Of a DNA stretch of 64,000 nucleotides, positions 1 to 62,961 are shown one piece after another (positions within the stretch are counted from its first letter, which is position 1; each line of letters opens with the position of its first letter). Source of the DNA: Squalus acanthias (lineage: Eukaryota); assembly GCA_030390025.1 (NCBI GenBank), contig CM059431.1:124870001-124934000 (forward strand), read 5' to 3'. Under the pieces are notes generated by a model, which was given only the letters and a program-made list of their open reading frames with translations, had not been told where the DNA came from and did no database searches. A program made the translations under genes and the position numbers.

Positions 1-35
1 TGAGCACTTCTTCAACTGAGGTATATACCTGCAGC

Positions 36-15290: not shown

Positions 15291-15694
15291 AAAGTAAAAT
15301 ATATTGTTAAAACATTACCGTATACTCCCACCTTTATTCTGGATCTCAATAGCTGAAAAAGTAGAAATATTGGCGGCGGGGGGGGGGGGGGGGGGAATTG
15401 GCTAACCCCTGAAAAGGGGCGTGGCGATCGCAGTACGCGATTAACCCTTCTCCATTCATTGAGTTGCAGGTAGCACGTTAAATTCATGCTGCCTGCTGTT
15501 TAAAATGATTACTGCGTGCAGCCAATGCGATCCGCGCTGTTCATTGGCTGCATTCATCAGCAGGGGGCCCGATATGGCGAGTGGCTAGCACTACTTAAAG
15601 GCAGCCTGTACCTGTTAAAGGGGAGGTGCACTGTGGCTGCAAGAAGTGGTGGGAGTTTTTTGAAAAGTGAATCTATGCTGTGATACTTTGAGGA

Positions 15695-17568
15695 ATGGCT
15701 GAACTTACGAGACAGCGTGCACCAAGTTTTTCATATAATGCACTGGAGGACTTGGTGCAAGAGGTGGAGAGAAGGAAAGCCATCCTGTATCCACAGGAGG
15801 GCAGGACAACCTCCGAAACATATGCTCAGGAGGCAGTGGGAAGAGGTAGCGCCGAGGTCAATGACAGGAGTATTGTTCCAAGAAAATAGTGCAGTGCAGG
15901 AAGAAGATAATGACCTGACATGAGTTGATTGAGTTCTTTCTTCAAATGGCATATCCTACCAACTGCACCACTAGCCTCATCCACTGCTCAATACACTACA
16001 CCCAGATCACCCACCTACCAATAATCTCCATCAATCAGTACTCAACTCTAAAATTCATAGGCTTTACCTCACCCTCACACACTTAGCACTGTTAATACCC
16101 TCACACCCACAACTCCCAGCTCACACACACAGGCAGCTATTCAACCATGACAGCCACATCACTCAATCATCTTGCATGATACTCACTGGCATACTTCCCT
16201 CTTTCTTGCTGGAGAAGGTGGTGTGTAGCAGGAGGCAGCAAAAACACTGGAGGAGGACGAGCATGCCTGCATGTGTAAACCCCTATTGATTAGATAGGGC
16301 TGGCTATCATGGGATGAGGCATTGATGAGGTTGTGGCTACTGGGGGTGCTGGAGGGATTGATGATGAGGTTATCTGCATACCTAATCTCCCTTCTCTCAT
16401 CCCAATTCTCCATCAACCTACAGTCTCTTCTGATTCACAAGCTGAAGAATGTGTAAGCACACACTTCTTAGTTACTCTTCTCCCCTCACCACAACCCAAC
16501 CCTTGTCTCTTTTTCGTTTCAGATACCCAAGAACTGTAACCTTTCCAGTCAGAGGAGGAAGATGAAGATGAAGATGATAGTGAAGATGAGGAGACACCGT
16601 CACTTGATCTTACACACGCAGCCATCAGCTCAGAGACTGATACTGCGTGTATTTTAGAGGCTAGGATAGAGGAGGGATCTGCACGTGGTGTGACACCGGG
16701 TCTAAGTGCGCAGGAGCCAGGGTGGGGGCAAAAGATAGCACAGATGCCAGCTCACCGGAGGACAAGGTCGCACACTAGTTCTGCTGCAGAGGAGTCAGCT
16801 GAGGACTTCAATGGGCCAGGCTTCATGGGTGTTGATAACCAAATACTTGGTGCACTGGAATGCCTGCCAGAAAGTCTGCACACGATGTCAAGGAGCATGA
16901 AGGAGTCCAGCACCAACTTGGCACAGGACTTTGCACAGCCCTTGGAGCCCATCCTTTCCAACATGGAATGGGTAGTCACTGCCATCAGCACACCTGTGGA
17001 ACCCACCTTAATGCAGCATCTGATGGCCGATGTCACAGCTTCCATTGCAGCACAAACATCTTCCATCAAAAGTCTGATTGCTGTCGTCGAAGCTCAGACT
17101 GCTGCCTTGCAAGCTCAGGCTGCTGCCATTGTGACACTGGATACCACTGTTCAAAGGGGCTTCCAGGGCATAAAAGCAGTCCATCACTCTGTTCTCCAAC
17201 AGATTACTAAAATTGCTGAGGCGTCGCCTCGGGAGAGTGGCTGTGGCTCTGTGGATTATGAACCTGCTATTCTATCTCAGGATTACAGCATTCCTGCTCC
17301 AATCCCTGTCACTCCGCCAGTGCCCTTGCTGTTGCTGTCAGTCAGCCAGCCCAGACTGCTGCAGCCCAGGCCAAGATGGGCTGCAGCAGGCCTTCAAGGC
17401 CCAGAGCTACTCGAGGTCACCCTCCAAGGCCAACTGCAGTCTGCTCAATTGAAGGTCAGCTGCTTTCCACCACATGCTGCAGCCACCGGGGAAGCACCTC
17501 ATAGGATCACTAGGATAGGCAAAGGCACATGGAAGACGGGCACTAAGGGAATGCACAAGGGTGATTAG
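15695..17568 (+). pseudogene. Harbinger B Myb/SANT-like gene, 3 exons (15695-~15920, ~16213-16370, 16523-17568)
   Basis: MAELTRQRAPSFSYNALEDLVQEVERRKAILYP; TTTCAG acceptor at 16522; exon 3 is acidic then coiled-coil-like (ORF 16690-17568); contains stops and frameshifts. Confidence 0.85.
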
Positions 17569-17813
17569 TTTATTTTTGAATGCATTGGCCTAGAAATTGG
17601 ATAATGCCTGTTCATAGTGGTGCAGGCAGCACACAACATTTGTGCTGCCTGCTCATAATAATGATAAATGTGCTGCTGATTGGATTAGCGCTGAACAGGG
17701 GGCCAATGTCGGGTGCAGTCTACTGGCCAATAAAGTTGGCCTTGGCTCTCTGCACTACTTAAAGGGGAGATGCTTTGTTGCAGAAGCACCTCATTGTAAT
17801 TGTGGAGAAAGAC

Positions 17814-19965
17814 ATGGCCCAACAGCCAAGATTGAGGGCGAGAAGATTTTCTGATGGAGCACTGGAGGCCTTGATCCTGGGGGTTCAAAGGCACCGTCAG
17901 GTCCTCTACCCATAGGGGGGCAGGAGGCCTTCAAGGCAGACCAGCAGAAGGCTGTGGGAGGAGATCGCTGAAGCTGTCAGTGCGACGAGTGTCGTCCCCA
18001 GGACCTGGATCCAGTGTCGCAAAAAAGCTTAATGACCTCACACGGGTGGTCAAGGTGAGTGAATGCATCATCAAATGCCATATCCCACCATCTGCATAAC
18101 TAGCCTCACACACTGCTCAATGCACCACACCGCCATCACTCACCTACCAACAATCTCTAGCAGTTGCCACTCATACCTTACAAGCATAGCTTCACTTCAC
18201 CCTTACACACTTACCACTGTGACAAGACTCACACCCACATCTCACATCCTCACACACTTACCACTGTGGCAAGACTCACATTCACATTTCACACCTTCAC
18301 ACACTTACCACTGTGGCAAGACTCACACCCACATTTCACACTCTCACACACTTATCACTGTGGCAAGACTCACACCCATATCTCACATCTTGCACACAAT
18401 TACCACTGTGGCAAGATTCACACCCACATTTCACACCCTCACACACTTATCACTGTGGCAAGACTCACACCCATATCTCACATCTTGCACACAATTACCA
18501 CTGTGGCAAGACTCACACCCACATCTCACACCCTCACACACTTACCACTGTGGCAAGACTCACACCCACATCTCACACCTTGCACACACTGCCAGCTATT
18601 CAACCACACTCACTGATACACTTTCCTTTCTCTTGCAGGCAAAGGTGGCTCATAACCACTGGGAGCAGCAGCAGACAGGTGGAGGGGAAGCCCGTCTGCA
18701 GAACCTGACAGAGCTGGAGTTCATTGTAGGGGCAGTCACGGAGTCCGTGGTGAGCGGGGAAGTTGAAAGCATTGCTGATGATGACAGTATTCTCATACCT
18801 AATCCTTTTTCTCGCATCCCACTTTCCCCTCATCCCACAATCTCTTCTCACTTACAAATTGCTGATAGATATCTTGCTTTCCCCCCCATCCTGACCACAA
18901 CCCGACCCTTGTGCCTTTGTGCCTTTCTCCTTTCAGATACCCAAGAAGTCCCACCAGCACAGCTAGTCCCCAAAGTGATGCAGGAGGAGAGTGAAAGAGA
19001 AGAAGACACACTGTCACTGCATCTGACACTCGCAGGCACCATCTCAGAAACAGGCACTGCGTGGACTTTGGAGGGTAGCATAGAGGTGGGATCTGCACAT
19101 GGTAAGTCATCGGGCACGTGTGGGCTGCAGCCAGGCCAGAGGGAAAGGGTAGTTCGGGTGTCAGCTTCACAGAGGGCGAGTTCGTCGCACGAGTTCTGCT
19201 GCACAGGACTCAGACAATAAATTTGATGAGGCGACGTTCAGAAGAAGCGTGATGGGCATGCACACAGAAATGCTTGGTGCAATGGCAAACCTGCCAGAGA
19301 GCTTCTGGTCATTGTCAAGGAGCATGTAAGAGTCCGGCTCCAACATTGCATGGGGCTTTGCATGGAGCTTGGAACGCATGATTTCCAGGATGTAAATGAT
19401 GGGCAACTCCGTGAGAAACCTTCTGGACCCAACTGGAATACTGCGTGTGATGGGCGATGGCACAGCTTCCATTGCAGCACAGACGGAAACGACCCAACGT
19501 CTCAGCGCTGCACTGGAGCTCAGACTGCTGCCATTGTGGCTGGGTTTACGAATGTGGAAAGGGGCTTGCAGGGTCTCACAGCACCCCACCAATCTATCCC
19601 GCAACAGGTGACTAGAAATGCTGAGGCACTGCTCTGGAGGAGTGGCAATGGGTCTGTGGAGCAGGAACCTGCTGCCCTCTCTCAGGATGACAGCATTCGT
19701 CCTCCCACCACTGCCACTCCGCCTGTGCCCTTGCTGCTGCCTGTCATCCAGCCAGCACAGACTGCTGCCGCCCATGCTCAGGTGGTGCAGACTTCAGCCG
19801 GGGCTTCTACGCCCAGAGCTGCTCAAGGTTGTCCTGCAAGGCCATCTGCAGTCTCCCCCACTGAAAGTCAGCAGCCTTCCACCAGCCATGCTGCAGCCAT
19901 TGGGGGAGCACTTCGTAGGAGCAGGAACACGAAAGATAGACACTAAGGTAATGCACAAGGGTGAT
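17814..19965 (+). pseudogene. Harbinger C Myb/SANT-like gene, 3 exons (17814-18054, 18639-~18787, 18937-~19965)
   Basis: MAQQPRLRARRFSDGALEAL...W..IA..VS...RTWIQCRKK.NDLTRVVK|GTGAGT; exon 2 AKVAHN...TGGG; premature stop and +1 frameshift in exon 1. Confidence 0.88.
18205..18590. repeat. Minisatellite, ~47-bp unit, about 8 copies, in intron 1 of the C Myb gene
   Basis: CACTGTGGCAAGACTCACACCCACAT recurs every 47-48 bp. Confidence 0.92.
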
Positions 19966-20134
19966 TCGTTGACGTTGTTTGATTTGTATTTGATAAATTT
20001 ATAAATTATGTTTGGAATGCTTGTTTTGTGGTGGCTCTCATTTCAGCTTTGTGCCCAAGAGGACACTGTGATGTTTCGTGACAGAAGGATGGTAAGATAG
20101 GGAAGTAGTAAGCAACGGGTATCTGCGGTTTCAT

Positions 20135-20864
20135 TCATTGGAACCGGATACTGATGAGGCGCTCACAGACAGCCTGTATGGAACGGGGATCTGCTGCCTG
20201 CCTCCTCCCATCCTCCTCCTCCTTCTCCTCTTCCTTCTCCTCCTCCTCCTCCTGAGGTGGTCTCGGAACTCGTGGTGACAAGCGCTGCACCCTCATGATG
20301 GCCTTTACGGTTACGGAACATCTCAAGATTGGTATGTGGCGCCTGCAAAGCCACCTGTGTGCAATCGATGATGCCCTGAACCATGGGGAAGCCCAATACC
20401 CTGGCAAAGCCACGTGCACGCTCCCGCTGCTTCTATCCATTTAGAGAAAAGCAATGAAGTCCCTTCTCCTGGAGTACAGAGCCTCTGTGATCTCCTGGAA
20501 GCAGCGATGGACGGCGAACTGTTAGCTATATCTTCCGCTCCAGACTGGAAGGATCAGCTGGTGAAAAAATTGAGGGCCACGGTGACCTGGAGGGCCACTG
20601 GCAGCACTGTTGTCACCCAGCTTTGAGGCTGCAGGTCTGGTTGCAGGAGGTGGCAGAGTTCTGTTCCAACCTCCTAATACACTGCCCCTGACTTAAGTGC
20701 AGGTAGAAGAATTGCTCTTGGAAGTTCGTAGGTGGGGAAGGCCTCCTGATGAGAGCCCTCCTGTCCCTCCTTCCTCTGCGAGCATCTTACCCTCTTCTTT
20801 GCTGTCTCTGCTCCATCTCCCTGGCATACTCAAGCGTGAGGGGAACTGCAAGTAGAGCCCCCAT
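20135..20864 (-). pseudogene. Harbinger C transposase remnant, most of the catalytic core deleted
   Basis: N-terminus MGALLAVPL...RRP.PP..FQEQF.YL, then GFPMVQGIIDCTQVAL...RNRKG joined directly to the C-terminal acidic tail. Confidence 0.85.
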
Positions 20865-21469: not shown

Positions 21470-22678
21470 TCACTCATGAATTATTTGATCACATAGAGCC
21501 CGGGCAGAAAAGGGCCATCTACATTGTAGCCTCCCTTCCTCTTCTTCCTCCTTCACTTCCTGTTGCACTTCCCCCTCCTCCTCCACTTCCTCCAATTCCT
21601 CCTCTTCCTCATGCTCCTGCTCCTCAACCTCTTTGTTACCTCTAGGCGGTGGCAAGGACTGTTCCCTCATAATGGCCAGATTCTGCAGCATGTAGCATAC
21701 TACCACAAATATTAACACCCGCTCAGCTGAGTACTACAGGGCTCCTCCAGAGCGGTCCAGGCAGCGGAGGCGTTGCTTGAGGATACCGATGGTGTGCTCT
21801 ATAATGTTCCTTATGGCAGCATGACTCTCATTGTAGGCCTGCTGTGCAAATGTGCATGGGTTCCAGACCGGAGTCATGAGGCATGTCATCAGTGGATAAC
21901 CCTTGTCGCCCAGTAGCCACCCTTTGACTTGCCGTGGTGGGTCAAATACAGGTGGCACAGTGGACTGCAGCAGAATGAAGGAATCGTGACAGCTGCCAGG
22001 ATAACGGGCATTCACCTACATGATGAGCTGTCTGTGGTTGCACTCTAGCTGCAGATTGAGAGAGTGGAATCCCATTCGGTTCAGAAAAATGGCCAAGTTC
22101 ACATGAGGCACACATAAGGCAATGTACATGCAGTCAATGGCACCCTGCTCCATGGGGAAGCCTACAATCCGTACAAACCCGTGTGCTCGCTCCGTCTGTT
22201 TGTCTCTGGCAAGGGGGAATGAGATTAAACTGTCTCTTTGTATATAGAGAGTCTCAGTGACCTCCCTTATACAGCAGTGCACTGCAAACTGTGAGATGTT
22301 TCTTATATCTCCAGAAGTAGTCTGGAAGGAGCCAGACGCATAAAAGTTAAGAGCCACGGTCACCTTGACAGCCACAGGCAATGCGGTCCTTGCCCTGCTT
22401 TGAGGTTGCAGTTGTGGCTGCAGCAGATTGCAGATTTCAGTCTTGACCTCTTTTGTGAAACAAAGACATCTCAAGCAATGGTCCTCGCTGAAGTTGAGGT
22501 AAGAGAATTGCTCCCTGAAGACCCTCGGCGGATATGACATCCTGCTGAAAGCCCTTCTCGCCCTCCTCCTTTTCCTTCTTCCAGCAGCTTGTCCTGCTCT
22601 GCATGGCCTCTCTTCATTCTCCCGATAATGTTCAATTCCCAGAGGAAGCCCTACCAGGCCACCCATGTTTGGAAGCAA
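21470..22678 (-). pseudogene. Harbinger B transposase, full length in one frame with two internal TAG stops
   Basis: ORFs 22016-22678, 21734-22015 and 21470-21718 are in the same frame. GAIDCMYI, GDKGYP and IIEHTIG (D, D, E) are all present. Confidence 0.95.
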
Positions 22679-23453
22679 CTTGTTTCAGCACAAGCTTTTA
22701 ACTGAACAAAAAGTACTCCAGTACCAGCCAGACCACTCCCTGTACACTATTCAAACCTTAACCAAGTCTAGGAAAACTCAAAAAAATATACTGCCAGAAG
22801 AAATAATCTAGCAACTAACCTGTAAGTAGTTTATGATCCCTTTAAGTAGCGCTGGTGGGGGGGTTCCTCATTTTATTTAACGTGTGTTCAGTTATGTGAA
22901 GTTAAGACAGGCTGGAGTGTGGCGTTTGAAAATTGCAGTGTTGGCATCAAATCAGCGTGACACACTGATTGACATCATAATTTGTCTGTTCTGCAGGCTG
23001 CCGGCAGTCATTAGGTGCACGCACACAAACTACTGTACCAAGAGGGCGTCCAGCGTACTTCCCATCGGAAGCGTGCGCGCACATCTTGGACCCCATTTTC
23101 GAGTGTTAGGAGGTCATGTAGCGCCTACAAGATGAGCGCTACACAGCACAATTTAACCCCCATCATACTTTGACTAGGAGTATCCTTCCCGATCCTGCCC
23201 GGAATCAGACAGGATTATGGCAGAAAATGATGAAAATGCAAGTGGTGAGACGTACCGCTGTCTGACAGGCCCCCCCCCCCCGGAACACTGTCACCGGAGG
23301 ATAATCGCCAGCTTTAATTCTATCAATTTTAAGGTACAATATTACATCCTGTTGTTGGTGCTTCTTTAAATATTTGTTTTATTCACTGTAGGAATATGAT
23401 AGAAAGGACATGATGCTCCTTTATTACTCACTGGGCTTATCTTGTACCTGAAT

Positions 23454-23770: not shown

Positions 23771-24560
23771 ACCCCAACAAAGAAAGGAGGGGAGATAAAT
23801 TGGTGGAAAAAAAACCAAAGAAAAGAAAAGACATGACAATGGAAGTGTCAAAAGCCACGTGTAATGTTTCTGTCCCTTCCTAAATTGATATCAGAAATGC
23901 AAACTGCAATTTTCTTTGATTTATTTTTTGCCTCACGTAGCAGATGTTCCCTTTTTCATCTGTAGAGAATAACTCGTAACATTGAAAAAGAGGTTATGCT
24001 GTGAAGCACGTGAAATGTAAAATATATCTGGTGCTCAAAAATAAAATGCACATGTAATGAGTTTCCTCAGAGCTTGAGAAGTGCCTATATATTATGCTTC
24101 TACTTCTGCCATTGGGGTACAACATTAGCTATTTAGTCAGTCAAGGATTCTTTGTTGGGTTTTGTGTAACTGTATTATTTTTGGTTACAAGTACAAATAA
24201 CTCACAAAAAGGACATCCTACAGGGAAAAATCTGCTAAGTGCTTCTGATCCAACTCCATCTATTTTCAGCTGTTGTTTGAGTATCAACTCACAAGACCGT
24301 TTCCCAACTCATACAACTCATTCAGTTAGGTAGGCATAAGTTGGACAAACACAAATCCATTTTCAGGAATCATTGTTGAAAACATATTTTATGCTGCCAT
24401 CAGTTTAAATATGTATTCTCATACGTTATCAAACATGCATTTTATGAATTGTTCAATGTGCTCAGTTGAAAAATGTGCTTTGGAAATATTTGCATGCAGA
24501 GGAAGATGGTGAATGCTGACTAACTGAAAAATGAACCAATTAGTGATTGACTGCATTACT

Positions 24561-26277
24561 TGTAGAATTCGCAATATATCGCGATTTGATTAATAAGGAG
24601 AAAACACAAAGTTTCGTTCAAACAGCTTTTATTTCAGCAGAATGCTGGCAGGTTTAAATTGGACACAAGCAGCCTGTAAAATGGCCGCCGCACCTCGTGA
24701 CAGAACATTCTAGACTTTTCAACAGGCAGACAAGATGGCGTTCCAATAAACATTTGTGCAAGATCGATTAAGATTCAGCACAGTGAAGATAATACACGAG
24801 ACATTATGGGTTTGCAGTATAAACATAGATACTGGAATCGGTCTCCCAGGTACAAAGGAAAGCCATTGTACCGAGTAATCAAGGGCCCATCCAAAGGACA
24901 TTAATATGTAAAATCCCAACGACTCTACGATGAGAGAGCCGTTAGCAGGTAGTTATACAGGACACTTGGAAGCCCCAAACCCCTCCAGGGAGAACACCGA
25001 CCGATTTAACAATGGGAGAAATATTAACAGGTACTCAGACATTTACGAGTAGCCCCGAAACCCATTTAAGAACGGAGATCACCCATACAAGACATTTGGG
25101 CGCCAAACCCGAAACAAAAGAAAGGACATTATAGTTGGGCGGGAAACGGAAGATTTTGCACTATAATTGCAGGCTCCAAACCGTCCATTCTTTCTCTTGC
25201 ATTCGCTCGCTTGCTCCTGTGCCTTTATCCGGTCGATTCGTAACCTCGTGGCTGCTCCTGTGTACTCGTAGTTGGGTTTCTGCTTGCCTGTTGCCTCTTC
25301 TGAAAAGACTGTTGAACTTTCTGATCCGTTCGGATCTACCTCGTGTCGCGTAACGAAGACCTATGTTGGTAACTGGCAGCGGAACCGAAGGCCCGAGATG
25401 AGATGAGATGAGATGAGATGAGATGAGAAGAGAGGAAGACCATATCCATCGCCACGGTCAGTAAATCCCGACCGCGCCTGTAGGTCGATTAGCCAAGTTT
25501 TCCTCGCCAGGAAGATTTCTCTTTTGAACTTATAACGAAACATATTGCATCGACGATAACTGGACTGTGTCCAGGGTAACTGGAACGTGAAAACACATCG
25601 TATCGATGATATTGACAACTGTGCTCCAAGAGTACCTGTTAAGCCAACCAACACAGGTCTTCATCACAGCAGACGGTCCAGCCTGCTAGCCGGAGCAGCA
25701 GAAGCAAGTAAACAAGTGGGACCAGGAGATCTCCTGACCGACACGTGGGTGCTGCGGTGAAAAACATCCGATCAGCTATTCGGAATTTCTCCGAGTTATC
25801 ACGAGTGGTGAGCATGAGTCTCGAGATCCTACGAATCTAGTTTAGGATAGATATTGATAGGGGAGGGTTTAAGGATTAAGGATATTTGTAATGTGTGCCC
25901 CTATTTACTTTGTGCCGTTCGTTCCTCGTTTCCCTAAGATCGACTATATAACTGTTTGTAAGATTGTACTGTCATTAATCTGTGCTTATGACATGTACTT
26001 CATAATTTTAAGTATCATGCAATAAAGATTTTCCATTTCGTACCATTCAAACCAAGTCTACATGAGTTTTATCTCCATTACTGCTCTCGCATCTAAGTCC
26101 AGTGTCTAGAACCGTAAGGGAGAGTGATTCGAACCACTCACAGGTGTGTCTAGTGTTCCCAGACTGGCTGGAGACCAGAACAGGCAACAAGGCCTAGACC
26201 CGCACTGACATACAGGCTGCACAGAGCCGCGTGAACCTCACAGGCTGCGAGACACGCAGGGTCAGGAATCCCTTACA
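24561..26277 (+). mobile_element. Solo LTR 1 (1717 bp)
   Basis: TGTA...TACA termini, exact 4-bp TSD TACT, TATA-like CTATAA at 25161, AATAAA at 26021; homologous end to end with 61123-62831. Confidence 0.9.
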
Positions 26278-26489
26278 TACTCATTAACCAAAAGAGTGAG
26301 CAGGTTACGTAGTCTTAATGTCATCATTAAATGATTTACTTACATTTTCCAGTAAACCACTGCCTAGAAGTAATTTATCTAATTGAAACTGACTTTAAGA
26401 ACATAAGAACATAAGAAATAGGAGCAGGAATAGGCCACTTGGCCCCTCGAGCCTGCTCCGCCATTCAGTAAGATCATGGCTGATCTTGG

Positions 26490-29416
26490 GCTCAAAGCCA
26501 CTTCCCAGCCCGCTCCCCATAACCCTTCACTCCCTTATCTTGCAAATATTTGTCTATCTCCACTTTAAATGTATTTAATGACCCAGCCTCCACAGCTCTC
26601 TGGGGCAGAGAATTCCACAAATTTACGACCCTCTAAGAGAAGATGTTCCTCCTCATCTCAGTTCTAAAAGGGCGACCATTTATTCTGAGACTGTGCCCCC
26701 TAGTTCTAGATTTCCCCATGAGGGGAAACATCCTCTCTGCATCTACCCTGTCGAGCCCCCTCAGTATCTTATATGTTTCGATAAGATCACCTCTCATTCT
26801 TCTAAATTCCAATGAGTATAGGCCCAGCCTGCTCAACCTTTCCTCATAAGTCAAACCCCTTCATCTCTGGAATTAACCTAGTGAATCATTTCTGAACTAC
26901 CTCCAATGCAAGTATATCCCTCCTTAAATAAGAAGACCAAAACTGTACGCAGTACTCAAGGTGTGGTCTCACCAATACCTTGTACAGTTGTAGCAGGACC
27001 TCCCTGCTTTTATACTCCAACCCCCTTGAAATAAAGGCCAACATTCCATTTGCCTTTTTGATTACTTGCTGTACCTGCATGCTAACTTTTTGTGTTTCAT
27101 GCACAAGGACCTCCAGGTCCCTCTGAACTGTAGCATTTTGTAATCTCTTTCCATTTAAATAATAGTTTGCTTTTTTATTTTACCTGCCAAAGTGGATAAC
27201 CTTGCACTTTCCCACATTATACTCCATCTGCAAAATGTTTGCCCACTCACCTAGCCTGTCTATATCCCTTTGCAGATTCTTTGAGTCCTCTGCACAACTT
27301 GCTTTCCCACCGATCTTTGTATCATCCGCAAACTTGGCTACATTACACTCGATCCCTTCATCCAAGTCATTCATGTAGATTGTAAATAGTTGGGGCCCCA
27401 GCACCAATCCTTATGGCACCCCACTAGTTACCGTTTGCCAACCAGAAAATGACCCATTTATCCCGAATCTCTGCTTTCTGTTAGTTAGCCAATTCTCTAT
27501 CCATGCTAATATATTACCCCAACTCCGTGAGCTCTTATCTTATGCAGTAACCTTTTATGTGGCACCTTATCGAATGCCTTCTGGAAATCCAAATACACCA
27601 CATCCACTGGCTCACCCTTGTCCACCCTGCTTGTTACATCCTCAAAGAACTCCAGCAAATTTGTTAAATATGATTTCCCTTTCATAAAACCATGCTGACT
27701 CTGTTTGACTGCAGTATGTTTTTCTAAATGCCCTGCTACTGCTTTCTTAATGAAGGACTCCAGCAATTTCCCAATGACAGATGTTGGGCTAACTGGTCTA
27801 TAGTTTCCTGCTTTCTGTCTCCCTCCTTTCTTAAATTGGAGTGTTACATTAGCGGTTTTCCAATCCGCTGGGACCTCTCCAGAGTCCAGGGAATTTTGGT
27901 ATATTGCAACCAATGCATCCACTATCTCTGCAGGCACTTCTTTTAAGACCCTAGGATGCAGGCCATCTGGTCCAGGGGACTTGTCGTCTTTTAGTCCCAT
28001 TATTTTACCGAGTACTATTTCCTTAGTGATAGTGATTGTCTTTAGTTCCCCACTCCCTGTGGCCCCTTGATTATCCATTATTGGGATGTTGTTAGTGTCT
28101 TCTACTGTGAAGACAGATGCTAAATATTTGTTCAGAGTCTCCACCATTTCCACGTACTCCATTATTAATTCCCCAGTCTCATCCTCTAAGGGACCAACGT
28201 TTACTTTAGCTACCCTCTTCCTTTTTATATACCTGTAGAAGCTCTTACTATCTGTTTTAATGTTTCTTGCCAGCTTACTCTCATAATTCATCTTTCTCTC
28301 TCTATTATTTTTTTAGTCATCCTTTGCTGGCCTCCCACCAATCTTGGCAACATTGTATGCCTTTGTTTTCAATTTGATACCATCCTTTACTTTCTTAGTT
28401 AGCCACGGATGGTGCTCCCTTCTCTTAAAATCTTTCTTTCTCACTGGAATATATTTTTGTTGAGAGTTATGAAATATCTCCTTAAATGTCCGCCACTGCA
28501 TTTCAACTGTCTTACCCTTTAATTTGTTTTTCCAGTCCACTTTAGCCAGTTCTGCCCTCATGCCATTATAATTGCCTTTGTTTAAGATCGGGACACTGGT
28601 TTGGGATACAACTTTCTCACCCTCCAACTGAATTTGAAATTCAACCATGCTGTGATCACACTTGCCTGGAGGATCCTTTACTATGAGATCATTTATTAAT
28701 TCTGTCTCATTACATAGTACCAGATCCAAGATAGCCTGCTCCCTGGTTCGTTCCATTACATACTGTTCGAGGAAAACATCCCAGATGCACTCTATGAACT
28801 CCTCCTCCAGGCTACCATGGCCAATTTGATTTGTCCAATCAATATGGAGATTAAAATCACCCATGATTATTACCGTACCTTTTTTACAGGCCTCCATTAT
28901 TTGTTGATTTATACTCTGTCCAACAGTATTGCTACTGTTTGGGGGCCTGTAGACTACGACCACCAGAGACTTTTTCCCCTTATTATTTTTTATCTCCACC
29001 CAAACCGATTCTATACCTTGATCTTCTGAGCCAATATCACTTCTCACCACTGCACTGATCCCATCTTTTACCAACAAAGCCACCCCACCTCACTTTCCTT
29101 TCTTTCTATCCTTCCGAATTATCATATACCCTGGAATATTCAGTTCCCAGCCCTGTTCGCCTTGCAACCACGTCTCTGTAATGGCGATCTGATCATACCC
29201 ATTTGTATCTATTTGTGCCGTCAACTCATTTATCTTGTTACAAATGCTGCATGCATTCAGATATAGAGCTTTTAACTTTGTCTTTTTACTATTTTTCCTT
29301 GTTTTGGCCTTTTTTTCTGTTACACTCTTATTTTTAAACATTCTGTCCCTCCCTGTCACACTCTGGTTATTGTTTTCCCCATCTCTAGCCTGCTCTATTG
29401 CTTTCTCATTTCTCAT
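26490..29416 (-). pseudogene. CR1 ORF2: APE endonuclease plus reverse transcriptase, disrupted
   Basis: YLNACSI, ITETWL, GDFN, CDHS, LDFQKAFDKVPH and FADDTK motifs across several frames. Confidence 0.93.
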
Positions 29417-30624: not shown

Positions 30625-30924
30625 CTCCCGCTGCTTTTGAACTCTCCCGGGTTTTGGCGCTCTCGCTCTGCTCCCGCTGCTTTTGAACTCTCCCGGGTTT
30701 TGGCGCTCTTGCTCTGCTCCCGCTGCTTTTGAACTCTCCCGGGTTTTGGCGCGCTCGCTCTGCTCCCGCTGCTTTTCAACTCTCCCGGGTTTTGGCGCGC
30801 TCGCTCTGCTCCCGCTGCTTTTGAACTCTCCTGGGTTTTGGCGCTCTCGCGCTGCTCCCGCTGCTTTTGAACTCTCCCGGGTTTTGGCGCTCTCTCTCTG
30901 CTCCCGCTGCTTTAGAACTCTCCC
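30625..30924 (-). promoter_or_regulatory. 46-bp monomer tandem array (6.5 copies) forming the CR1 5' end; putative internal promoter
   Basis: Units start at 30625, 30671, 30717, 30763, 30809, 30855 and 30901. CpG-rich, with a CRE (TGACGTCA, 30563-30570) and a CCAAT (30540) nearby. Promoter role is inferred. Confidence 0.75.
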
Positions 30925-31932: not shown

Positions 31933-34900
31933 GGCCCGATTTTATCTCGGGGCGTGAGTGCATTGTGCGGGGCCATGGTGGGTTTGCAAACCTTCCGGCC
32001 CCCGCAGCCTAAACTCATGGGACTCATTTCAATGTTCCAAGTCAAACCCCTGCCCGAACCTGGCGGGAATCACTACCTGGCCGGTGGGCAGGAGCAGAAT
32101 TTTGGGTGGCAGAAGGCGCCACCGAGGACCCGAGGAAAAGGTCCCCGACATAAGGTAAGTGGTGGGGGAGCATCCGGAGGTTATCGTGATTGGGGTTGGG
32201 GGAGGGAAGCCTGGGGCAGGGGAGGTCCTCCTGGCCTATAAGGAAACCAAAAAATATGATTTTTAATCACTTTTCTGGGCTCTTCTGGTGAAAAGCAAAA
32301 GTGGAAGTCAGAGAAATCAAGGGTGTAAATCAAACATGGCCACAGTAAACAATAATTCTAGAAGGTGTAAGAGTGTTAAAAAAACAAGCCTGAAGGATTT
32401 GTGTCTTAATGCGAGGAGCATTCGTAATAAGGTGGATGAATTAGCTGTGCAAATAGATGTAAACGGATATGATATAATTGGGATTACGGAGACATGGCTC
32501 CAGGGTGACCAAGGTTGGGAATTCAATATCCAGGGGTATTCAATATTCAGGAAGGACAGGCAAAAAGGAAAAAGAGGTGGGGTAGCATTCCTGGTTAAAG
32601 AGGAGATTAACACAATAGTAAGGAATGATATTAGCCCTGATGATGTGGAATCTGTATGGGTAGAGCTGAGAAATACCAAGGGGCAGAAAACGTTAGTGGG
32701 AGTTGTATATAGACCCCCAATCAATAACGCTGAGGTTGGGGATGGCATTAAATGGGAAATTAGAGATGCGTGCAATAAGGGCACAGCAGTTATCATGGGT
32801 GACTTTAATCTACATATAGATTGGGCTAACCAAATTAGTAACAATACTGTGGAAGTGGAATTCCTAGAGTGTATACGGGATGGTTTCCTGGACCAATATG
32901 TCGAGGAACCAACTAGAGATCAGGCCATCTTAAACTGGGTATTATGTAAAGAGAAAGGATTAATTAGCAATCTTGTTGTGTGAGGCCCCTTGGGGAGGAG
33001 CAATCATAATATGATAGAATTCTTCATTAAGATGGAGAGTGAAGTAATAGTTGACTCAGAGACTAGGGTACTGAATTTAAATAAAGGAAACTACGATGGT
33101 ATGAGGCGCGAGTTGGCTAGGATGGATTGGGGAATGTTACTTAAAGGGTTGATGGTGGATAAGCAATGGCAAATGTTTAAAGATCGCATGGATGAACTAC
33201 ATAATTTGTTCATCCCTGATTGGCATAAAAATAAAACAAAAAAGATGACTCAACCGTGGCTAACAAGGGTAATTAGGGATAGCATAAGATCCAAGAAGAG
33301 GACATTTAAATTGGCCAGAAAAAGTAGCAAACCTGAGGATTGGGAGCAGTTTAGGATTCAGCAAAGGAGGACAAAGGGATTCATTAAGAGGGGGAAAATA
33401 GAGTATGAGAGTAAGCTTGCAGGGAACATAAAAACTGACTGTAAAAGCTTCTATAGATATGTGAAGAGAAAACGATTGGTGAAGTCAAGCGTAGGTCCCT
33501 TGCAGTCAGAATCAGGGGAATTTATAATGGGGAACAAAGAAATGTGAGACCAATTAAATACATACTTTGGTTCTGTCTTCACAAAGGAGGACACAAATAA
33601 ACTCCCAGAGATGTCGGGGAACATATGGTCTAATGAGAGGGAGGAACTGAATGAAATCAGTATTTGTAGAGAAATGGTGTTAGGGAAATTGGCGGGATTG
33701 AAGGCCGATAAATCCCCAGGGCCTGATAATCTACATCCTAGGGTACTAAAGGAAGTGGCCATAGAAATAGTAGATGCATTGCTGGTCATCTTCCAAAATT
33801 CTACAGACTCTGGAACAGTTCCCATGGATTGGAGGGTAGCTAATGTAACCCCACTATTTAAAAAAGGTGGGAGAGAGAAAATGGGGAATTATAGACCGGT
33901 AAGCCTGACATCTGTAGTGGGGAAAATGCTAGAGTCCATTATAAAAGATGTAATAGCAGAGCACTTGGAAAACAGTGACAGGATTGGACAAAGTCAACAT
34001 GGATTTACAAAGATAAATCATGCTTGACTGATCTACTTGAATTTTTTGAGGATTTAACTAGTAGAATAGATAAGGGAGAACCAGTGGATGTGGTATATTT
34101 GGACTTTTAAAAGGCTTTCGATAAGGTCCCGCATAAGAGATTAGCGTGCAAAGTTAAAGCACATGGGATTGGGGGTAAGGTACTGACTTGGATAGAAAAC
34201 TGGTTGGCAGACAGGAAGCAAAGAGTTGGAATAAACGGGTCTTTTTCTGAGCGGCAGGCAGTGACTAGTGGGGTACTGCAGGGATCGGTGCTAGGACCCC
34301 AGTTATTCACAATATATATTAATGATCTAGACGAGGGAACTAGATGTAATATCTCCAGGTTTGCAGATGACACAAAGCTGGGTGGGCGTGTGTGCTGTGA
34401 GGAGGATGCAGAGAAACTCCAGTATGATTTGGACAAGTTGGGTGATTGGGCAGATGCATGGCAGATGCAGTATAATGTGGATAAATGTGAGGTTATCCAC
34501 TTTGGAGGCAAAAACAGGAAGGCAGATTATTATCTGAACGGCAATAGATTGGGAAAAGGGGAAGTGCAACGAGACCTGGGTGTCCTTGTGCACCAGTCGC
34601 TGAAGGTAAGCATGCAGGTGCAGCATGCAGTTAAAAAGGCAAATGGTATGTTGGCCTTCATAGCGAGAGGATTCGAGTACAGGAGCAAGGATGTCTAGCT
34701 GCAGTTGTACAGGGCCTTGGTGAGACCACACCTTGAGTATTGTGTGCAGTTTTGGTCACCTTATCTGAGGAAGGATGTTCTTGCCATGGAGGGTGTGCAG
34801 CGAAGATTCACCAGACTGATACCTCGGATGGCAGGAATGATGTATGAAGAGAGATTGGGTCGATTAGGCTTATATTCGCTAGAGTTTAGAAGAATGAGAG

Positions 34901-35575
34901 GGGACCTCATTGAAACTTATAAAATTCTAACAGGACTAGACAGACTAGATGCAGGAAGGCTGTTCCCGATGGCGGGGGAGTCCAGAACCAGGGGTCACAG
35001 TCTAAGGATAAGGGGTAAGCCATTTAGAACTGAGATGAGGAGGAATTTCTTCACCCAGAGAGTGGTGAACCTGTGGAATTCTCTACCACAGAAGGCAGTT
35101 GAGGCCAATTCATTAAATATATCCAAGAAGGAGTTAGATATATTTCTTAAGGCTAAGGGGATCAAGGGATATGGGGAGAAAGCAGGGAAAGGGTACTGAA
35201 TTTGGATGATCAGCCATGATCGCATTGAATGGTGGAGCAGTCTCGAGGGACGAATGGCCTACTCCTGCTCCTATCTTCTATGTTTCTATGTTTCTGTGCT
35301 CCTTTTTGCCGCTTGTTTTCACTGGCAGCTCCGGCATGGTGAGTCACTGCCACGATCAGCAGTTATAATTACGTGAGGGTCCTAATTGCACCAGCGGACC
35401 CTGACACTTAATTATTAGTGAGGCCCCTGCCTGACTGTGGCAGCTGCCTTCGACCCTGCTGAAAATCCAGCAGTTAAAATGGCGGAGGACAGGAGCAAGG
35501 AAGGAAGTGCGCAGCCGTCATTTTAACCACCCACTCGCCCCATTCCCATCAGGCGGGCAGGGTTAAAATCGGCCC
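31933..35575. mobile_element. Non-autonomous Harbinger-like element split by a CR1 insertion
   Basis: Ends GGCCCGATTTTA (31933) and TAAAATCGGCCC (35575) are inverted; GC-rich halves 31933-32287 and 35297-35575. Confidence 0.7.
32288..35296 (+). mobile_element. CR1 LINE with nearly complete disrupted ORF2, no ORF1
   Basis: APE (LNARSI, ITETWL, GDFN) and RT (FADDTK) fragments; (TTTCTATG)n tail. Confidence 0.95.
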
Positions 35576-36670: not shown

Positions 36671-37092
36671 TGACAATAGCTGAAACTGTGCAACGTTTCC
36701 TAGCCTTAAAGGAAGGTTTAATTCTCAACTTAGCTGTGGGAATATAATTGAAATAAGAAAGCAATAGGATATTAGTAACTGAGGTGGAAAGCAGGAGATA
36801 ACAAGTGTATGTCATTACCATCGGCAAAGACACGTACTGGCACAATGAGGGCAAATCTGAAACATATTAAAATGAGGTATAAAGACCTTTTTAAATACAG
36901 GAGGCATTGTAAACAAATGCCAACTCATTAATGGGAAAAGCTGAGAAACTGACTCCCGTCTCTGCTGCTCAGATATTTTAATTACTTAATAAGCTTCATA
37001 TTTTTTCTGTTGGATCTTAAATAATTTCAAACTATAGAGCCAAGCACAAGATAAAAAGACTGATCGTGCTTTTTTACATTGCAAATATAAAA

Positions 37093-37986: not shown

Positions 37987-37995
37987 AAAGATTTT

Positions 37996-42989: not shown

Positions 42990-43137
42990 TTGAGTCTAAA
43001 ACTCTAATTTGCTGATTTTTTTTTGTAGTTGTCGGCATTAATGGAGCACCTAGCAGCTTCAATGGAATCTGCAGCAGCTCCCTACCTCAAAAGCTGTCTA
43101 GGACCAATTGATGAGTCCGCTTCCACAGAAACACAGA

Positions 43138-54020: not shown

Positions 54021-54218
54021 CCTCAACTACACCTCCCCATTCACCAACAATCCAACATTCCTGACCACTCCTTTCTCACTGACCATCACATTGTCCTCTT
54101 TCTGACAAACCTTATTGGTTCCTCCCTCAGTTCACCATGGAAATAAAAATAACACCAAAATGCAAAGTCAAATCAAAATTTATCAATTCAATCACTAAAT
54201 AACACATACAAAATGAAA

Positions 54219-59357: not shown

Positions 59358-62300
59358 ATGGCAGGTCCACGCTCCAGGGAGAGAGCCCGCAGATTCTGCG
59401 ATGAATCATTGGAGGCGTTGGTCTTCACTGAAGAGAGATGGAGGGCAGTGCTGTACCCAGAAAGTGGCAGGAGGCCCTCGCCACAAGTATTCCACACCAT
59501 GTGGAGGGAGGTTGCGCAGCACGTCTCGGGCAGCACTGTGGTCCCCAGGACCCACACACAGTGCAGGAAGAAATTTAACGATCTCACTCGGGTGGTCAGG
59601 GTGAGTCAATGCTTCAACAAATGCTACATACCACCATCTGAACCACAGTCTGCACACACTGCCCAAAGCACCACACCCCCAGCACTCACCCACCAACAAT
59701 CTCTACCTACCAACACTCACACCCACATCTCACACCTTGCATACAATGACAGGCACATCACCCAAACACATTGCTCCACACTCACTCACACACTTTCCTT
59801 TCTCTTGTAGGCCAAGGTGCTCACAACAGGAGGAAGCAGGAGCGCACAGGCGGGGGACAAGCCGACACCCAACCACTGTCTGCGCTGGAGAATCGAGTGC
59901 TGCAGATTATTGAGCGCCAGGTGGTGGGCGCTATGGCCACTGGCGATGTTGACCCCCTTGGGGACAACAACGGTATGTTCATCCCGACTCCTTCTTCTCA
60001 CATCCCACTTTGCCCTCACCCCACAAGTGTTTTGTACTTTCCAGCTAATCGTGCTGTATGCATGCATTTCTCCCTCCCTGCCCCCTCTCCTCACCTTAAG
60101 CCGAATCTTGCACTTTAATGCTTTCAGATAATGAGCAAGCACCTGAGCAACCTGTCCCTGAGGGCACGGTAGAGAGCGAGGCGGGAGAAGAGGAGGAAGA
60201 AGAACACACTGCGTCACTGCATCTCTCACCCACAGACACCAGCTCAGGTATTGATACCACGTGTTCTATAGAGGCTAGTACAGTAGCAGGATCGGCACAG
60301 GGTGATGCACCAGGGACGAGCGGCCTGCAGCAAGGCCAGGGGGATAGGGTAGCTCGGGGGCCAGCTCCCCGGAGGGCGAGTTCACGCGTGAGTTCTGCTG
60401 CACAGGACTCAGATGATGACCTCGATGGGGAGGCATTTAGCTGAAGGGAGATGGGCATGCACACGGAGATGATAGATGCAATGGCAAAGGTGTCTGAGAG
60501 CCTCTCAGCAATGGTAAGGAGCGTGGAGGTGTCCGCCTTCAACATTGCACAAGGCTGTGAGCACACCATGGAGCCCAACATTTCCATTCTGCAAAGGATG
60601 GTAGACTCCCAGAGAGACCGTGGCGACCCAGACCTGATGCCGCGTGCGATGGACGATCTGGCAGCTTTCATTGCAGCACAGGCAGAAGCGACGCAATGTC
60701 TTAGTGCTGTAATGGAGTCTATGCTTGGTGGCATTCAATGGCAGACTGCTCTCATGCAGTCTCAGCTTGATGCCATGAAATCTCTGAGTGCTGCCATTGT
60801 GGCTGGGTCTACCACCATTGACCAGGGCTTTCACGGTGTTGCAGCAGGCCTGCAATCTGTGCTCCAACAGATTGCTCGGGATGCTGAGGTTCTGTCCCAG
60901 GGGAGTGGCAGTGGGTCAATGGAGCAGGAACTTGCTGTCTGCTGTCACGATGACAGCATTTCTGTTCCCACCACTGCCACTCCGCCATTGTCCTTGTCGC
61001 TGCCTGTCATCCAGCTAGCCCAGACTGCTGCCTCCCATGCTAAGATGGTGCAGTCTAGAGCCAGACCTTCCAGGTCCAGAGCTGGTCGAGGACATTCTGC
61101 GAGGCCATCTGAAGTCTCCCACTGTAAGGGGTTTTGTGTCGTGCTTGTATCGCAGACGGTGCTGGTGCGGGGTTAGGCCTTCGTTGCCTAATACTATTGC
61201 TTGCTCTGGTCTCCGGCCAGCCTTGTTGCAATAAGCACCCGTGAGTGGTTCGACCCACTCACCCTTACGGTTCTAACACTGGACTTAGGTGCGAGAGCAG
61301 TAATGCAGAGAAAAACTCAAATAGACCCGGTTGAATAGTACGAAATGGAAAGCTTTATTGCATAGCATCCAAGATCATGAAGTACATGTCATAGGCGCAA
61401 ATTAACGAGAGTACAAGTATACATACATTCATAAAGCTTGGTCTATGGTAATGAAGAACGCAGGGCACATCGTAAAAAGGGGAACACATGATACTTTATC
61501 CTTAATAAAACCACCCTCCCTTATCAATACCTACACTACATCTAGATTTGTAGGATCGGGAAACATGCTCACCACTCGTGATACTTCGGAGAATTTTAAA
61601 GTGAGGCACTCGGCTCGTTCGCTGCAGCGCCTGACTGTCACGTGTTTGGAGGGGTCTCTGTACCCCACTTGTTTATCTTCGCTGCTGCTGCAAGCAGGCT
61701 GGGCTCCCCATTGTCATGAAGAACTCGACAGTGCTCGGGCCCGGTTGTAGAACTCAAAGAAAAGTCTTCCTGGACCGACACCAGTTGCCGGTAGAATTCA
61801 AAGAAGTGTTTTCCTGTATCGACACCAGTTGTCGATAAAATTCGAGGAAGAGTCTATGACCAGTTCGTGCAGTAACTGATAGAGTTCGTATAAATTCGGC
61901 GCGGTCGGGGTATACTGACCGCGGCGGCACGTGGATTCTTCTTCTTCTCTTCTCATCTCGTCTCGTCTCTTCGGGCCTTCGGGTCCAAAACACCGTTTAC
62001 CGACACTCGGGATGGTGCACCCGGTTACTCGCCCTTCGTCGAGGCGGCTCGTCCCGATTGAGCTCCACCCAACATTCGAATAACCGTCCAGTGCGGCTAA
62101 AAGTCCAGAGTCAACAGTCCAGAGAAACAAGAGCACGAATCAAGCGAATAAGAGTCGAATCAAGAGCATCAGCCGAGATAAGAGAAAAATAAGAGCGATG
62201 CCAGCGAATAAGAGACCGATGGACATTTGTTGTCTATAGTTATAGTGCTGTGTTCCCTTATCTCCCACCCAAATCTTAATGTTTGTCCTTTGTGAAATAT

Positions 62301-62961
62301 TGGCGCTCAAAACTCCCAGCATGGGGTAATTCTTGTCTTTAACGGGTTTCGGTAGCACCTGAGACTGGCCAACTACCCGTTAATGTTTTCCCCATTGTTG
62401 AACCGGCTCGGAGCCTCCCTGGTTGGGTTTTGGGGGCCTCCGAATACTTGTTTAATCACCCGAAAATGGCTCTCTCATTGTAGAGCCGTGGGGGTATTTG
62501 CGTGTTGATGTGTCTGGATGGGCCTTCGATTGCCCAGTACAATGGTCCTTACTTGTGCATGGAAAACGATTCCAGCACTCATATCTTTTCCTATTGTCAC
62601 AAATGCAAACAGGTTGCATCCTGTCTTTATCAGTGCTTATCGAAAATGTTTATTCGAACGCCATCTTGTCTGCCCACTGTACTTCTGGAAACTTCTGCCA
62701 CGATGCGCGGCGGCCATTTTACAGGCTTCTGTGTCCTGTTTAATCATGACAGCATTTTGTTTAAATAAACTGATCAAACGAATCTGCTTCTATCTCGTTA
62801 TTTCGAATTGCGATAATTGCGAAACTTTACACCACACAGACACTCAGCAGCCTTCCACCCGCCATGCTGCAGCCTTTGGGCCAACACTTTGTAGGAGCAC
62901 TAGAGCAGGAAAAGGCACAGTAACGACAGGCACTAAGGGATTGCAAAAGGGTGAAAAGTAA
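59358..62961 (+). pseudogene. Harbinger F Myb/SANT-like gene, exons 59358-59600, 59811-59972 and 60128-62961 (exon 3 split by the LTR)
   Basis: Intact 81-codon exon 1 (MAGPRSRERARRF...QCRKKFNDLTRVVR|GTGAGT) with canonical GT/AG at all four sites; 1-nt deletion in exon 2 and a stop in exon 3. Confidence 0.9.
61123..62831 (-). mobile_element. Solo LTR 2 (1709 bp)
   Basis: TGTAA...TTACA termini and exact TSD CCAC. The reverse complement shares blocks with LTR 1 (GCCTGTAAAATGGCCGCCGC, GCAGACAAGATGGCGTTC, CCCGACCGCGCC, TCACGAGTGGTGAGCATG, GCAATAAAG). Confidence 0.92.

What the first reader, a model, noticed from the sequence alone, without database searches (positions are those of the whole stretch)
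24561..26277. A family of ~1.7-kb solo LTRs with an apparently very long R region containing a conserved splice donor
Seen: two independent insertions (here, and 61123-62831 on -) of nearly equal length, each with TG..CA ends and its own exact 4-bp TSD. They have clearly diverged yet keep the same ordered motifs: CACTATAA (~25159), a pyrimidine-rich start region (~25185), a purine-rich (GAGAT/GAGAC)n tract, CCCGACCGCGCC, TCACGAGTG|GTGAGCATG (~25800) and GCAATAAAG (26021). Inference: U3 is about 0.6 kb, R about 0.85 kb and U5 about 0.25 kb, so each solo LTR would be a self-contained transcription unit for a ~0.85-kb RNA, or a splice-out first exon. Known: 4-bp TSDs occur in Gypsy, ERV1-type and foamy elements; foamy viruses have similarly long LTRs and a splice donor in R upstream of the poly(A) signal, but much shorter R regions. 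The parent class cannot be read from this window.
Basis: partly seen in the sequence, partly recalled or inferred. Interest (0 to 1): 0.72.

Follow-up and report, generated by a model that had tools for sequence, protein, structure and literature searches.

The report
BHIKHARI-style long-R shark retroviral LTRs
These are two leftover end-repeats of a very abundant, recently mobile retrovirus-like element, likely built like the zebrafish BHIKHARI repeat so that each would make its own roughly 0.85-kb RNA with a predicted small intron, although no RNA data here show where transcription starts or that splicing occurs.

Summary
Both 1.7-kb copies have TG..CA ends and exact 4-bp duplications. An empty allele of copy A stands in two DNA runs, and thousands of contigs match the repeat. 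The only TATA shared by both copies and the better-supported poly(A) signal lie 859-885 nt apart, so R is likely about 0.85 kb. No RNA start, end or junction was seen. The donor motif alone is common, and four other donor-like sites are also shared. New here: the best acceptor of both copies lies 130 nt behind it, so R likely holds a small intron. Zebrafish BHIKHARI LTRs (about 1.72 kb, mapped start, expressed solo LTRs) show the same layout, with R about 0.6-0.67 kb by my hand count. The architecture therefore has a precedent; the parent class is untested. The scan noted long LTRs and a tRNA-Arg ERV family elsewhere in this genome, but no note on a long R turned up.

The parts
24557..24560 (+). 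Left target-site duplication of copy A (TACT)
   Evidence: empty allele skips LTR + 4 nt
24561..26277 (+). Solo LTR copy A, 1717 bp, insertion polymorphic
24561..25189 (+). Inferred U3 of A (about 0.63 kb); A-rich, non-coding
   Evidence: skew turn at LTR position 593; 12 indels against B, 0 of 12 a multiple of three
24671..24755 (+). Most conserved U3 block: two YY1-like motifs (label recalled) and a proximal AATAAA at 24745 that is likely not used
   Evidence: exact runs of 21, 19 and 11 nt; 34% identity behind the hexamer, 1 UGUA upstream
25137..25166 (+). GC box and TATA-like box (TATAA at 25162): predicted core promoter
   Evidence: the only TATAW kept in both copies, of 6 in A and 1 in B
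25190..26047 (+). Inferred R of A (about 0.86 kb); both ends predicted
   Evidence: TATA to AATAAA 859 nt in A, 885 in B; 5' part CpG o/e 1.0-1.1, GC 49-51%
25396..25478 (+). Purine-rich GAGAT tract, then a second shared donor-like site (GT at 25457) and the CCCGACCGCGCC block
25797..25815 (+). 19-nt exact block holding the candidate donor (GT at 25808)
25808..25938 (+). Predicted 131-nt intron inside R: donor, G-runs, branch-like motif, pyrimidine tract, AG
   Evidence: top-ranked acceptor 1 of 25 in A and 1 of 32 in B, same aligned site; no junction seen
26021..26026 (+). Distal AATAAA, predicted poly(A) signal
   Evidence: 3-4 UGUA in the 100 nt upstream, 84% identity over the 70 nt downstream
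26048..26277 (+). Inferred U5 of A (about 0.23 kb). Its last 165 nt are predicted to be closed by a stem pairing 26114-26120 with 26270-26276, and hold a hairpin with a TCGAAC loop
   Evidence: z -2.3 and -2.9; window chosen
26278..26281 (+). Right target-site duplication of copy A (TACT)
61119..61122 (-). Target-site duplication behind copy B (GTGG on -)
61123..62831 (-). Solo LTR copy B, 1709 bp. TATA at 62244, donor GT at 61572, acceptor AG ending 61443, AATAAA at 61359
62832..62835 (-). Target-site duplication before copy B (GTGG on -)

Best explanation
These are two solo LTRs of a high-copy, recently mobile retroelement family whose primer site follows the right end and is likely of tRNA-Arg type; they are likely built like the zebrafish BHIKHARI LTR, with a predicted start near 25190, a predicted poly(A) site near 26047 and a predicted 130-nt intron between them. 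SHOWN: the insertions with 4-bp duplications, the empty allele of A, high abundance, orientation, and the lack of coding frames. INFERRED mechanism: RNA polymerase II starts about 30 nt behind the TATA box and copies a CpG-rich first exon of about 620 nt that ends at the donor at 25808. In a full provirus's 5' LTR the donor would bind U1 and splice to internal acceptors, which hides or removes the 5' poly(A) site. In the 3' LTR or a solo LTR, the nearest acceptor (25938) would be used or recognised instead, defining a terminal exon of about 110 nt that ends at the AATAAA. A solo LTR would then give a capped, polyadenylated non-coding RNA of about 0.86 kb unspliced or 0.73 kb spliced. The packaged RNA would have to keep the intron in its 5' R, because the family retains it. 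The last 165 nt of U5 would fold into a closed domain beside the primer site. My odds by step: insertion and orientation 0.97; R longer than 0.6 kb 0.75; this donor and acceptor really used 0.5; parent inside the lokiretrovirus clade by RT 0.35.
For: Empty allele in 2 of 2 DNA runs laid; 4906 and 6975 contigs laid in X1 and X2. The junction LTR-CA, GAAAA, TGGCGACCGCG appears among the loose ends of X7 and X9, and its first letters in X2; X12 shows only other flanks. It matches at 10 of 11 letters a site that PMC11905727 assigns to tRNA-Arg. One TATAW is shared, with a GC box before it and the A-T skew turning at positions 593 and 606. The distal AATAAA has UGUA elements and a conserved downstream region; the proximal one does not. 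The best acceptor of each copy is the same aligned site, 130-131 nt behind the donor and 83-84 nt before AATAAA, and GC falls from about 50% to 35-38% behind the donor. Precedent, counted by eye on the first row of each published alignment (PMC12067270 Dataset S1). [quoted passage not shown] Bik-2: 1720 bp by its header, with TATA-like box, donor-like site, AG and AATAAA at about 786, 1130, 1223 and 1391. Both end in a TTCGAA-bearing U5 and have 3-6 nt before the primer site. Two strongly upregulated bhik-2 loci are solo LTRs, and 14 bhik-2 loci are expressed independently of genes in poly(A)-selected RNA (PMC13476778). Long-read TE-alone transcripts labelled BHIKHARI_LTR are listed in PMC12006353 source data.
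Against: No start, 3' end or splice junction was observed: all runs laid were contigs, and no joint from 25807 stands among the 15 joints listed (4 not shown). The donor motif is at chance frequency. On a simple U1-pairing count it ranks only joint third of 94 GT sites in A and joint seventh of 92 in B, and four other donor-like sites are shared. Copy A has a better TATA (TATATAA, 25945) that would give a short R. The two copies are homologous, so their agreement is not independent evidence. Local folding of R shows no strong signal (z between -1.9 and +1.6). The BHIKHARI comparison is by eye on one row per family, without an alignment, and its poly(A) site and intron are my inference. The primer site differs from BHIKHARI's. 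The lokiretrovirus screen lists 0 of 3 cartilaginous-fish genomes as positive (PMC7947760 supplement). Earlier scan notes place a 1.7-kb-LTR, tRNA-Arg family of this genome near snakehead retrovirus (unchecked).
Confidence: 0.6

Rival explanations
1. R is long, but the conserved 19-nt block is a DNA-level factor site (it holds a CACGAG N-box-like motif, label recalled) or a packaging element. The working donor would be another one, such as 25457 behind the purine tract, or none lies in R.
For: The block extends 11 nt upstream of the GT, further than U1 pairing needs. The 25457 site pairs with U1 as well as 25808 does (7-8 against 7.5) and follows a purine tract of the kind that enhances exons. 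No junction was seen.
Against: A conserved branch-like motif, pyrimidine tract and AG follow at intron-like distance in both copies. A similar donor-acceptor pair precedes AATAAA in Bik-1 and Bik-2 (by eye).
Confidence: 0.2
2. An ordinary short-R LTR with a long U3: transcription starts near 25975, behind the TATATAA at 25945, and the middle of the LTR is enhancer DNA.
For: A has a consensus TATATAA 76 nt before AATAAA, with GATA-like and G-rich motifs upstream. Most retroviral R regions are short: foamy 193 nt, HTLV-1 228 nt (PMC3694450).
Against: B reads TTTATGAA at that place, and B-like forms without the TATA occur among X1 and X2 contigs. The stretch is U- and UGUA-rich, like a 3'-end region. 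The upstream TATA is the conserved one. BHIKHARI has a mapped upstream start.
Confidence: 0.1
3. A foamy-like ERV LTR in which U1 at the R donor blocks 5' polyadenylation, and U3 pairing masks the donor at the 3' end.
For: Teleost foamy-like ERVs have LTRs compared over about 1.4-1.7 kb in most pairs listed, and 4-nt duplications (PMC5210030). The foamy donor lies in R before the poly(A) signal. The donor block's best U3 partner is the homologous conserved block in both copies (-19.2 and -18.3 kcal/mol; 9 and 21 of 200 shuffles as low).
Against: Primer sites reported for fish and amphibian foamy-like ERVs are Lys, Thr or Asn, not Arg. U3 shows no coding signal. The duplex was 1 of 8 combinations tried, and in whole-RNA folds it changes donor accessibility little (0.19 to 0.13 and 0.39 to 0.27). 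The polypurine-tract junction could not be read.
Confidence: 0.07
4. A Gypsy (Metaviridae) LTR with tRNA-Arg priming.
For: Animal Gypsy elements can use tRNA-Arg, and animal Helenus elements, thought to be mobilised by Gypsy, make 4-bp duplications (PMC10886601). No internal gene was recovered here.
Against: Length, layout and U5 end resemble BHIKHARI. Earlier notes tie tRNA-Arg long-LTR elements of this genome to env-bearing ERVs (unchecked).
Confidence: 0.05

Closest known systems
Zebrafish BHIKHARI (Bik-1) and BHIKHARI-2/crestin LTRs, endogenous lokiretroviruses (PMC12067270: passages, Dataset S1 parts 1 and 113; PMC13476778 and PMC12006353: passages and supplement rows; Vogel and Gerster 1999 not read)
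   Same: LTR about 1.72 kb; TATA and start in the middle third; AATAAA 0.6-0.7 kb later; a donor-like site and a pyrimidine-tract acceptor before AATAAA; U5 about 0.3 kb with TTCGAA motifs and a CTTACA or CCTACA end; 3-6 nt before the primer site; many solo LTRs; polymorphic insertions; solo LTRs expressed (compared by eye).
   Different: R is about 0.86 kb here against about 0.6-0.67 kb. The predicted intron is 130 against about 95-100 nt. The primer site is Arg-type here and of another type there. The host is likely a cartilaginous fish (from earlier notes and repeat content, not tested). No alignment or RT comparison was made.
Snakehead retrovirus and CmiERV lineage I of the elephant shark (PMC12193657: passages; PMC4422223: first part of the text and supplement 1 part 1)
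   Same: Basal retroviruses of fishes and sharks. Earlier scan notes assign a young, 1.7-kb-LTR, tRNA-Arg family of this genome to this group (unchecked). tRNA-Arg priming of SnRV is recalled, not seen in a call.
   Different: The SnRV LTR is 518 bp. The CmiERV scaffold 2 LTR is about 0.83 kb, with AATAAA about 60-70 nt from the end and another primer site (by eye). Neither has this layout.
Foamy viruses and teleost/amphibian foamy-like ERVs (PMC3694450: abstract and Background; PMC5210030 and PMC5512871: passages)
   Same: Long LTR, 4-bp duplication, donor inside R upstream of the poly(A) signal.
   Different: Prototype foamy R is 193 nt. Primer sites are Lys, Thr or Asn. Here there is no reading frame in U3, and there is a candidate acceptor inside R.
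HTLV-1 and BLV (long-R deltaretroviruses; PMC3694450 Background, listing)
   Same: R longer than usual.
   Different: HTLV-1 R is 228 nt, and its poly(A) signal lies in U3 and is bridged by RNA structure. Here the signal would lie at the 3' end of an R nearly four times longer.

Membership tests
Solo LTR of an LTR retroelement | TG..CA ends with a short target-site duplication | tested here: met
Solo LTR of an LTR retroelement | Other family copies are followed by a primer-binding site | tested here: met
   junction in X7 and X9, partly in X2; 11 letters read
Lokiretrovirus / BHIKHARI | RT groups with the lokiretrovirus clade | not testable with these tools
   no genome held; no related contig found
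Lokiretrovirus / BHIKHARI | Env like fusion protein F0; dual RNase H | not testable with these tools
   internal region not recovered; earlier notes claim an F-type env for a similar family (unchecked)
Lokiretrovirus / BHIKHARI | About 1.7-kb LTR with mid-LTR start, distal AATAAA and long U5 (descriptive, not a formal criterion) | tested here: met
   (by eye; start here predicted)
Lokiretrovirus / BHIKHARI | Same primer tRNA as Bik-1 and Bik-2 | tested here: not met
Foamy virus / foamy-like ERV | 4-nt target-site duplication and long LTR | tested here: met
   PMC5210030
Foamy virus / foamy-like ERV | Primer site tRNA-Lys (Thr or Asn in some fish and newt elements) | tested here: not met
   Arg-type
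Foamy virus / foamy-like ERV | GGG|TG at the polypurine tract-LTR border | not tested
   both read-laying runs were used; the left junction was not among the rows shown
Foamy virus / foamy-like ERV | Accessory reading frame running into U3 (recalled feature) | tested here: not met
   0 of 12 U3 indels keep frame; stops in all six frames
Foamy virus / foamy-like ERV | Spumaviral RT and separate pol mRNA | not testable with these tools
   internal region not recovered
SnRV-related ERVs (CmiERV lineage I) | Pol groups with snakehead retrovirus | not testable with these tools
   internal region not recovered
SnRV-related ERVs (CmiERV lineage I) | LTR of 0.5-0.8 kb with poly(A) signal near the end (descriptive) | tested here: not met
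Helenus/Ajax TRIMs with a small-RNA gene in the LTR | tRNA- or 5S-derived sequence in a short LTR | tested here: not met
   no tRNA gene in the window; no Rfam match at gathering score in copy A; LTR 1.7 kb

The most novel reading that the evidence does not exclude
A lineage of fish and shark retroviruses has moved its whole first exon and a complete small intron into an R region of 0.6-0.9 kb, three to four times HTLV-1's. One donor then silences the 5' poly(A) site and, with the R-internal acceptor, activates the 3' one. Every solo LTR becomes a ready-made two-exon non-coding gene, present in very many copies in this genome. If the parent's Pol is snakehead-retrovirus-like, as earlier notes suggest, a BHIKHARI-type LTR and env module sits on the enzymes of another clade, in a host group where lokiretroviruses were not reported. 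The primer site also holds an ATG in good context, so gag may start there, which would leave R-U5 as the only leader.
Probability: 0.3. Interest if true: 0.72.

Novelty: new variant of a known kind. Interest (0 to 1): 0.43.

Why it matters
[quoted passage not shown] An R of 0.85 kb with its own predicted intron would be a further solution, and it could be tested at once in zebrafish through BHIKHARI. It would also explain why such solo LTRs give abundant poly(A) RNA; for bhik-2, expressing that RNA sped up melanoma in fish (PMC13476778). In this genome the family is abundant and polymorphic, so it may be a large source of promoters, first exons and non-coding RNAs. If the RNA tests fail, these are ordinary solo LTRs of one more shark ERV family.

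Tried and rejected
No whole genome is held, so paired copies could not be sought. Only two family members lie in the window. Scans for LTR or junction motifs gave nothing related: 0 hits, and 1, 1 and 14 hits. None of those 16 loci aligns to either LTR (best E 0.22); one looks like a phage tRNA gene and the rest are chance words. No RNA holder is listed as such. Runs X8, X9 and X12 are only guessed to be RNA and are contigs. X8 and X9 cover the whole LTR and not the unique flanks, and contig depth cannot place a start or an end, so I drew nothing on expression from them. The reverse orientation, suggested by a shared AATAAA on the other strand near the left end, was rejected by the primer site. 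A short-R, long-U5 layout at the proximal AATAAA was judged unlikely. Coding in the LTR was rejected. Rfam gave 4 matches, all far below gathering score. Pairing of U5 with the donor block is no better than shuffles (185 and 131 of 200); U3 pairing is borderline. The small U5 hairpin alone is not significant in A (z +0.55) though it is in B (z -2.5). Sequence look-ups in earlier findings returned nothing, so identity with families noted elsewhere is not established. Literature: 'long R region' with LTR and retrovirus gave 3 papers, all on BLV; shark, ERV, LTR and tRNA-Arg gave 0; solo LTR, R region and zebrafish gave 5, of which I read passages of 2, with no such R described. Dfam and Repbase could not be searched. 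Subscription papers (Vogel and Gerster 1999; the cartilaginous-fish foamy virus paper) and picture-only supplements (PMC12006353 file 2, with the BHIKHARI LTR map) were not seen and may already state the R length.

Full report
Observation. Copy A spans 24561-26277 on + with TACT on both sides; copy B spans 61123-62831 on - with GTGG on both sides; both start TG and end CA. A profile of the two finds no third copy in the window. Their similarity is patchy, from 40% to 81% per 100 nt. CpG is barely depleted (observed/expected 0.87 and 0.96, against 0.46 for the window), which fits youth or low methylation.

They are true insertions. No genome is held, so I laid public run contigs. In both DNA runs laid on the whole element, one contig joins 24556 to 26278 and skips 1721 letters, the LTR plus one target copy. 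Copy A is therefore polymorphic; X1 may be the source sample, X2 is another sample and study. In the same call 4906 and 6975 contigs matched the stretch, with summed depth thousands of times the flank's. That is no copy number, but it marks an abundant family. Copy B interrupts another repeat whose LTR-free paralogues in the window carry both flanks; an upstream frame of that repeat matches the Myb/SANT family PF13873.

Orientation and primer. Orientation was open, because both copies also share an AATAAA on the opposite strand about 70 nt from the left end. Laying four runs on the right end showed a recurring continuation: the LTR's final CA, five letters (GAAAA), then TGGCGACCGCG. It stands in X7 and X9, and its first letters in X2; X12 showed only other flanks (21 loose ends shown, 14 not). 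It matches at 10 of 11 letters a site that PMC11905727 (passages) assigns to tRNA-Arg. Only 11 letters were read. The junction also spells an ATG with A at -3 and G at +4.

Where R begins and ends. Of six TATAW words in A only the one at 25162 is kept in B, where it is the only one; a GC box precedes it, and the cumulative A-minus-T curve turns at LTR positions 593 and 606. A's better-looking TATATAA at 25945 is absent from B. Of the two shared sense AATAAA, the distal one has 3-4 UGUA upstream, about 40% T upstream and 84% identity downstream; the proximal one has 1, about 20% and 34%. TATA and distal signal are 859 and 885 nt apart. It is an inference: all runs were contigs, none is on record as RNA, and no start or end was seen.

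The donor. A G|GTRAG occurs in 56% of shuffles of A, and five donor-like sites are aligned in both copies. The named one sits in a 19-nt exact block that local identity does not explain (6 of 2000 shuffles), but on U1 pairing it is not the strongest site. Ranking AG sites by their pyrimidine tract puts the same aligned site first in both copies (1 of 25 and 1 of 32), with a branch-like motif, 130-131 nt behind the donor and 83-84 nt before AATAAA; GC falls from about 50% to 35-38% across the donor. A small intron inside R is thus predicted. Against it, no such joint is among the 15 listed (4 hidden), and a U-rich stretch is expected before any poly(A) site. A second candidate donor (25457) follows the purine tract. 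A foamy-like masking of the donor by U3 is borderline: best duplexes at the homologous U3 block, 9 and 21 of 200 shuffles, 1 of 8 combinations, little effect in whole folds.

Other anatomy. The LTR is non-coding: 0 of 12 U3 indels and 2 of 17 R indels keep frame. The last 165 nt of U5 fold better than shuffles in both copies (z -2.3 and -2.9, window chosen) and are closed by a stem that pairs a conserved GTAAGG with the LTR end. This accounts for one of the five shared donor-like words without splicing.

Comparison with what is known. Bik-1's LTR is about 1717 bp, with TATA at about 740, the oligo target that the authors place right behind the mapped start at about 783, and AATAAA at about 1420: R about 0.67 kb. 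Bik-2 is 1720 bp, with a TATA-like box at about 786 and AATAAA at about 1391. Both have a donor-like site and a pyrimidine tract with AG about 95-100 nt apart before AATAAA, a long U5 with TTCGAA motifs, and 3-6 nt before the primer site. Solo bhik-2 LTRs are expressed independently of genes in poly(A) RNA (PMC13476778), and long-read transcripts labelled BHIKHARI_LTR exist (PMC12006353). So a long-R LTR that works as its own transcription unit has a precedent. Foamy-like fish ERVs share LTR length and 4-bp duplications but use Lys, Thr or Asn primers, and prototype foamy R is 193 nt. SnRV's LTR is 518 bp, and the elephant-shark lineage I LTR is about 0.83 kb with its signal near the end, so neither matches. 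The lokiretrovirus screen found none in 3 cartilaginous-fish genomes. Membership in any clade needs the RT, which I could not recover. The shark-type host rests on earlier notes and recalled repeat types.

Verdict. The elements work, most likely, like BHIKHARI LTRs with a longer R; they are not shown to be lokiretroviruses. I found no paper that states an R of this length or an intron inside R, but key papers and repeat databases were out of reach. New variant of a known kind; interest 0.43, rising to about 0.7 if RNA confirms the start and the intron.

Noticed in passing
window 20-1138 (+): 372-aa frame with a DDE_Tnp_4 domain (PF13359, E 2e-31): a PIF/Harbinger-type transposase. A decayed relative lies at about 21700-22700 (-).
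   Followed up: partly
window 15400-20140, 54150-56300 (-), 59240-63300: At least four diverged copies (65-77% identity) of a repeat with a Myb/SANT frame (PF13873 at 59241-59807), likely the Harbinger companion gene; LTR copy B sits in one.
   Followed up: partly
window 4591-6946, 26400-29290 (-), 32300-35290: Three LINE copies with RT (PF00078 at 5131-6393), two of them 90% identical over 2.4 kb; CR1-like by recall.
   Followed up: no
window 39546-40846 (+): Frames with RT-like motifs and a weak GIY-YIG match (E 5e-4, below cut-off): likely a Penelope element.
   Followed up: no
window 37092-37987 and 43137-44028: Two direct copies of about 895 bp, 93% identical, 6 kb apart, with the Penelope-like element between them; could be paired LTRs or two copies of a short transposon.
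   Followed up: no
window 51487-51933 and 52219-52651: Inverted repeat of about 445 bp, 90% identical, 285 bp apart.
   Followed up: no
window 18190-18590 and 30625-30924: Tandem arrays with units of about 47 and 46 bp (self-matches at 92-95%).
   Followed up: no
window 25188-25262: Run contigs show length-variable CTCTT-type insertions just behind the predicted start, so the 5' end of R varies in short tandem units across the family (table 5c).
   Followed up: no
window 24671-24755: The longest exact matches between the copies (21 and 19 nt) are two YY1-like motifs in U3. The primer-site junction spells a third such motif (AAAATGGCG). The label is recalled.
   Followed up: partly
PMC12067270 Dataset S1 (outside the window): Zebrafish Bik-1 and Bik-2 LTRs seem to hold an intron of about 95-100 nt inside a 0.6-0.67-kb R; I saw no mention of it in the passages read.
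   Followed up: partly
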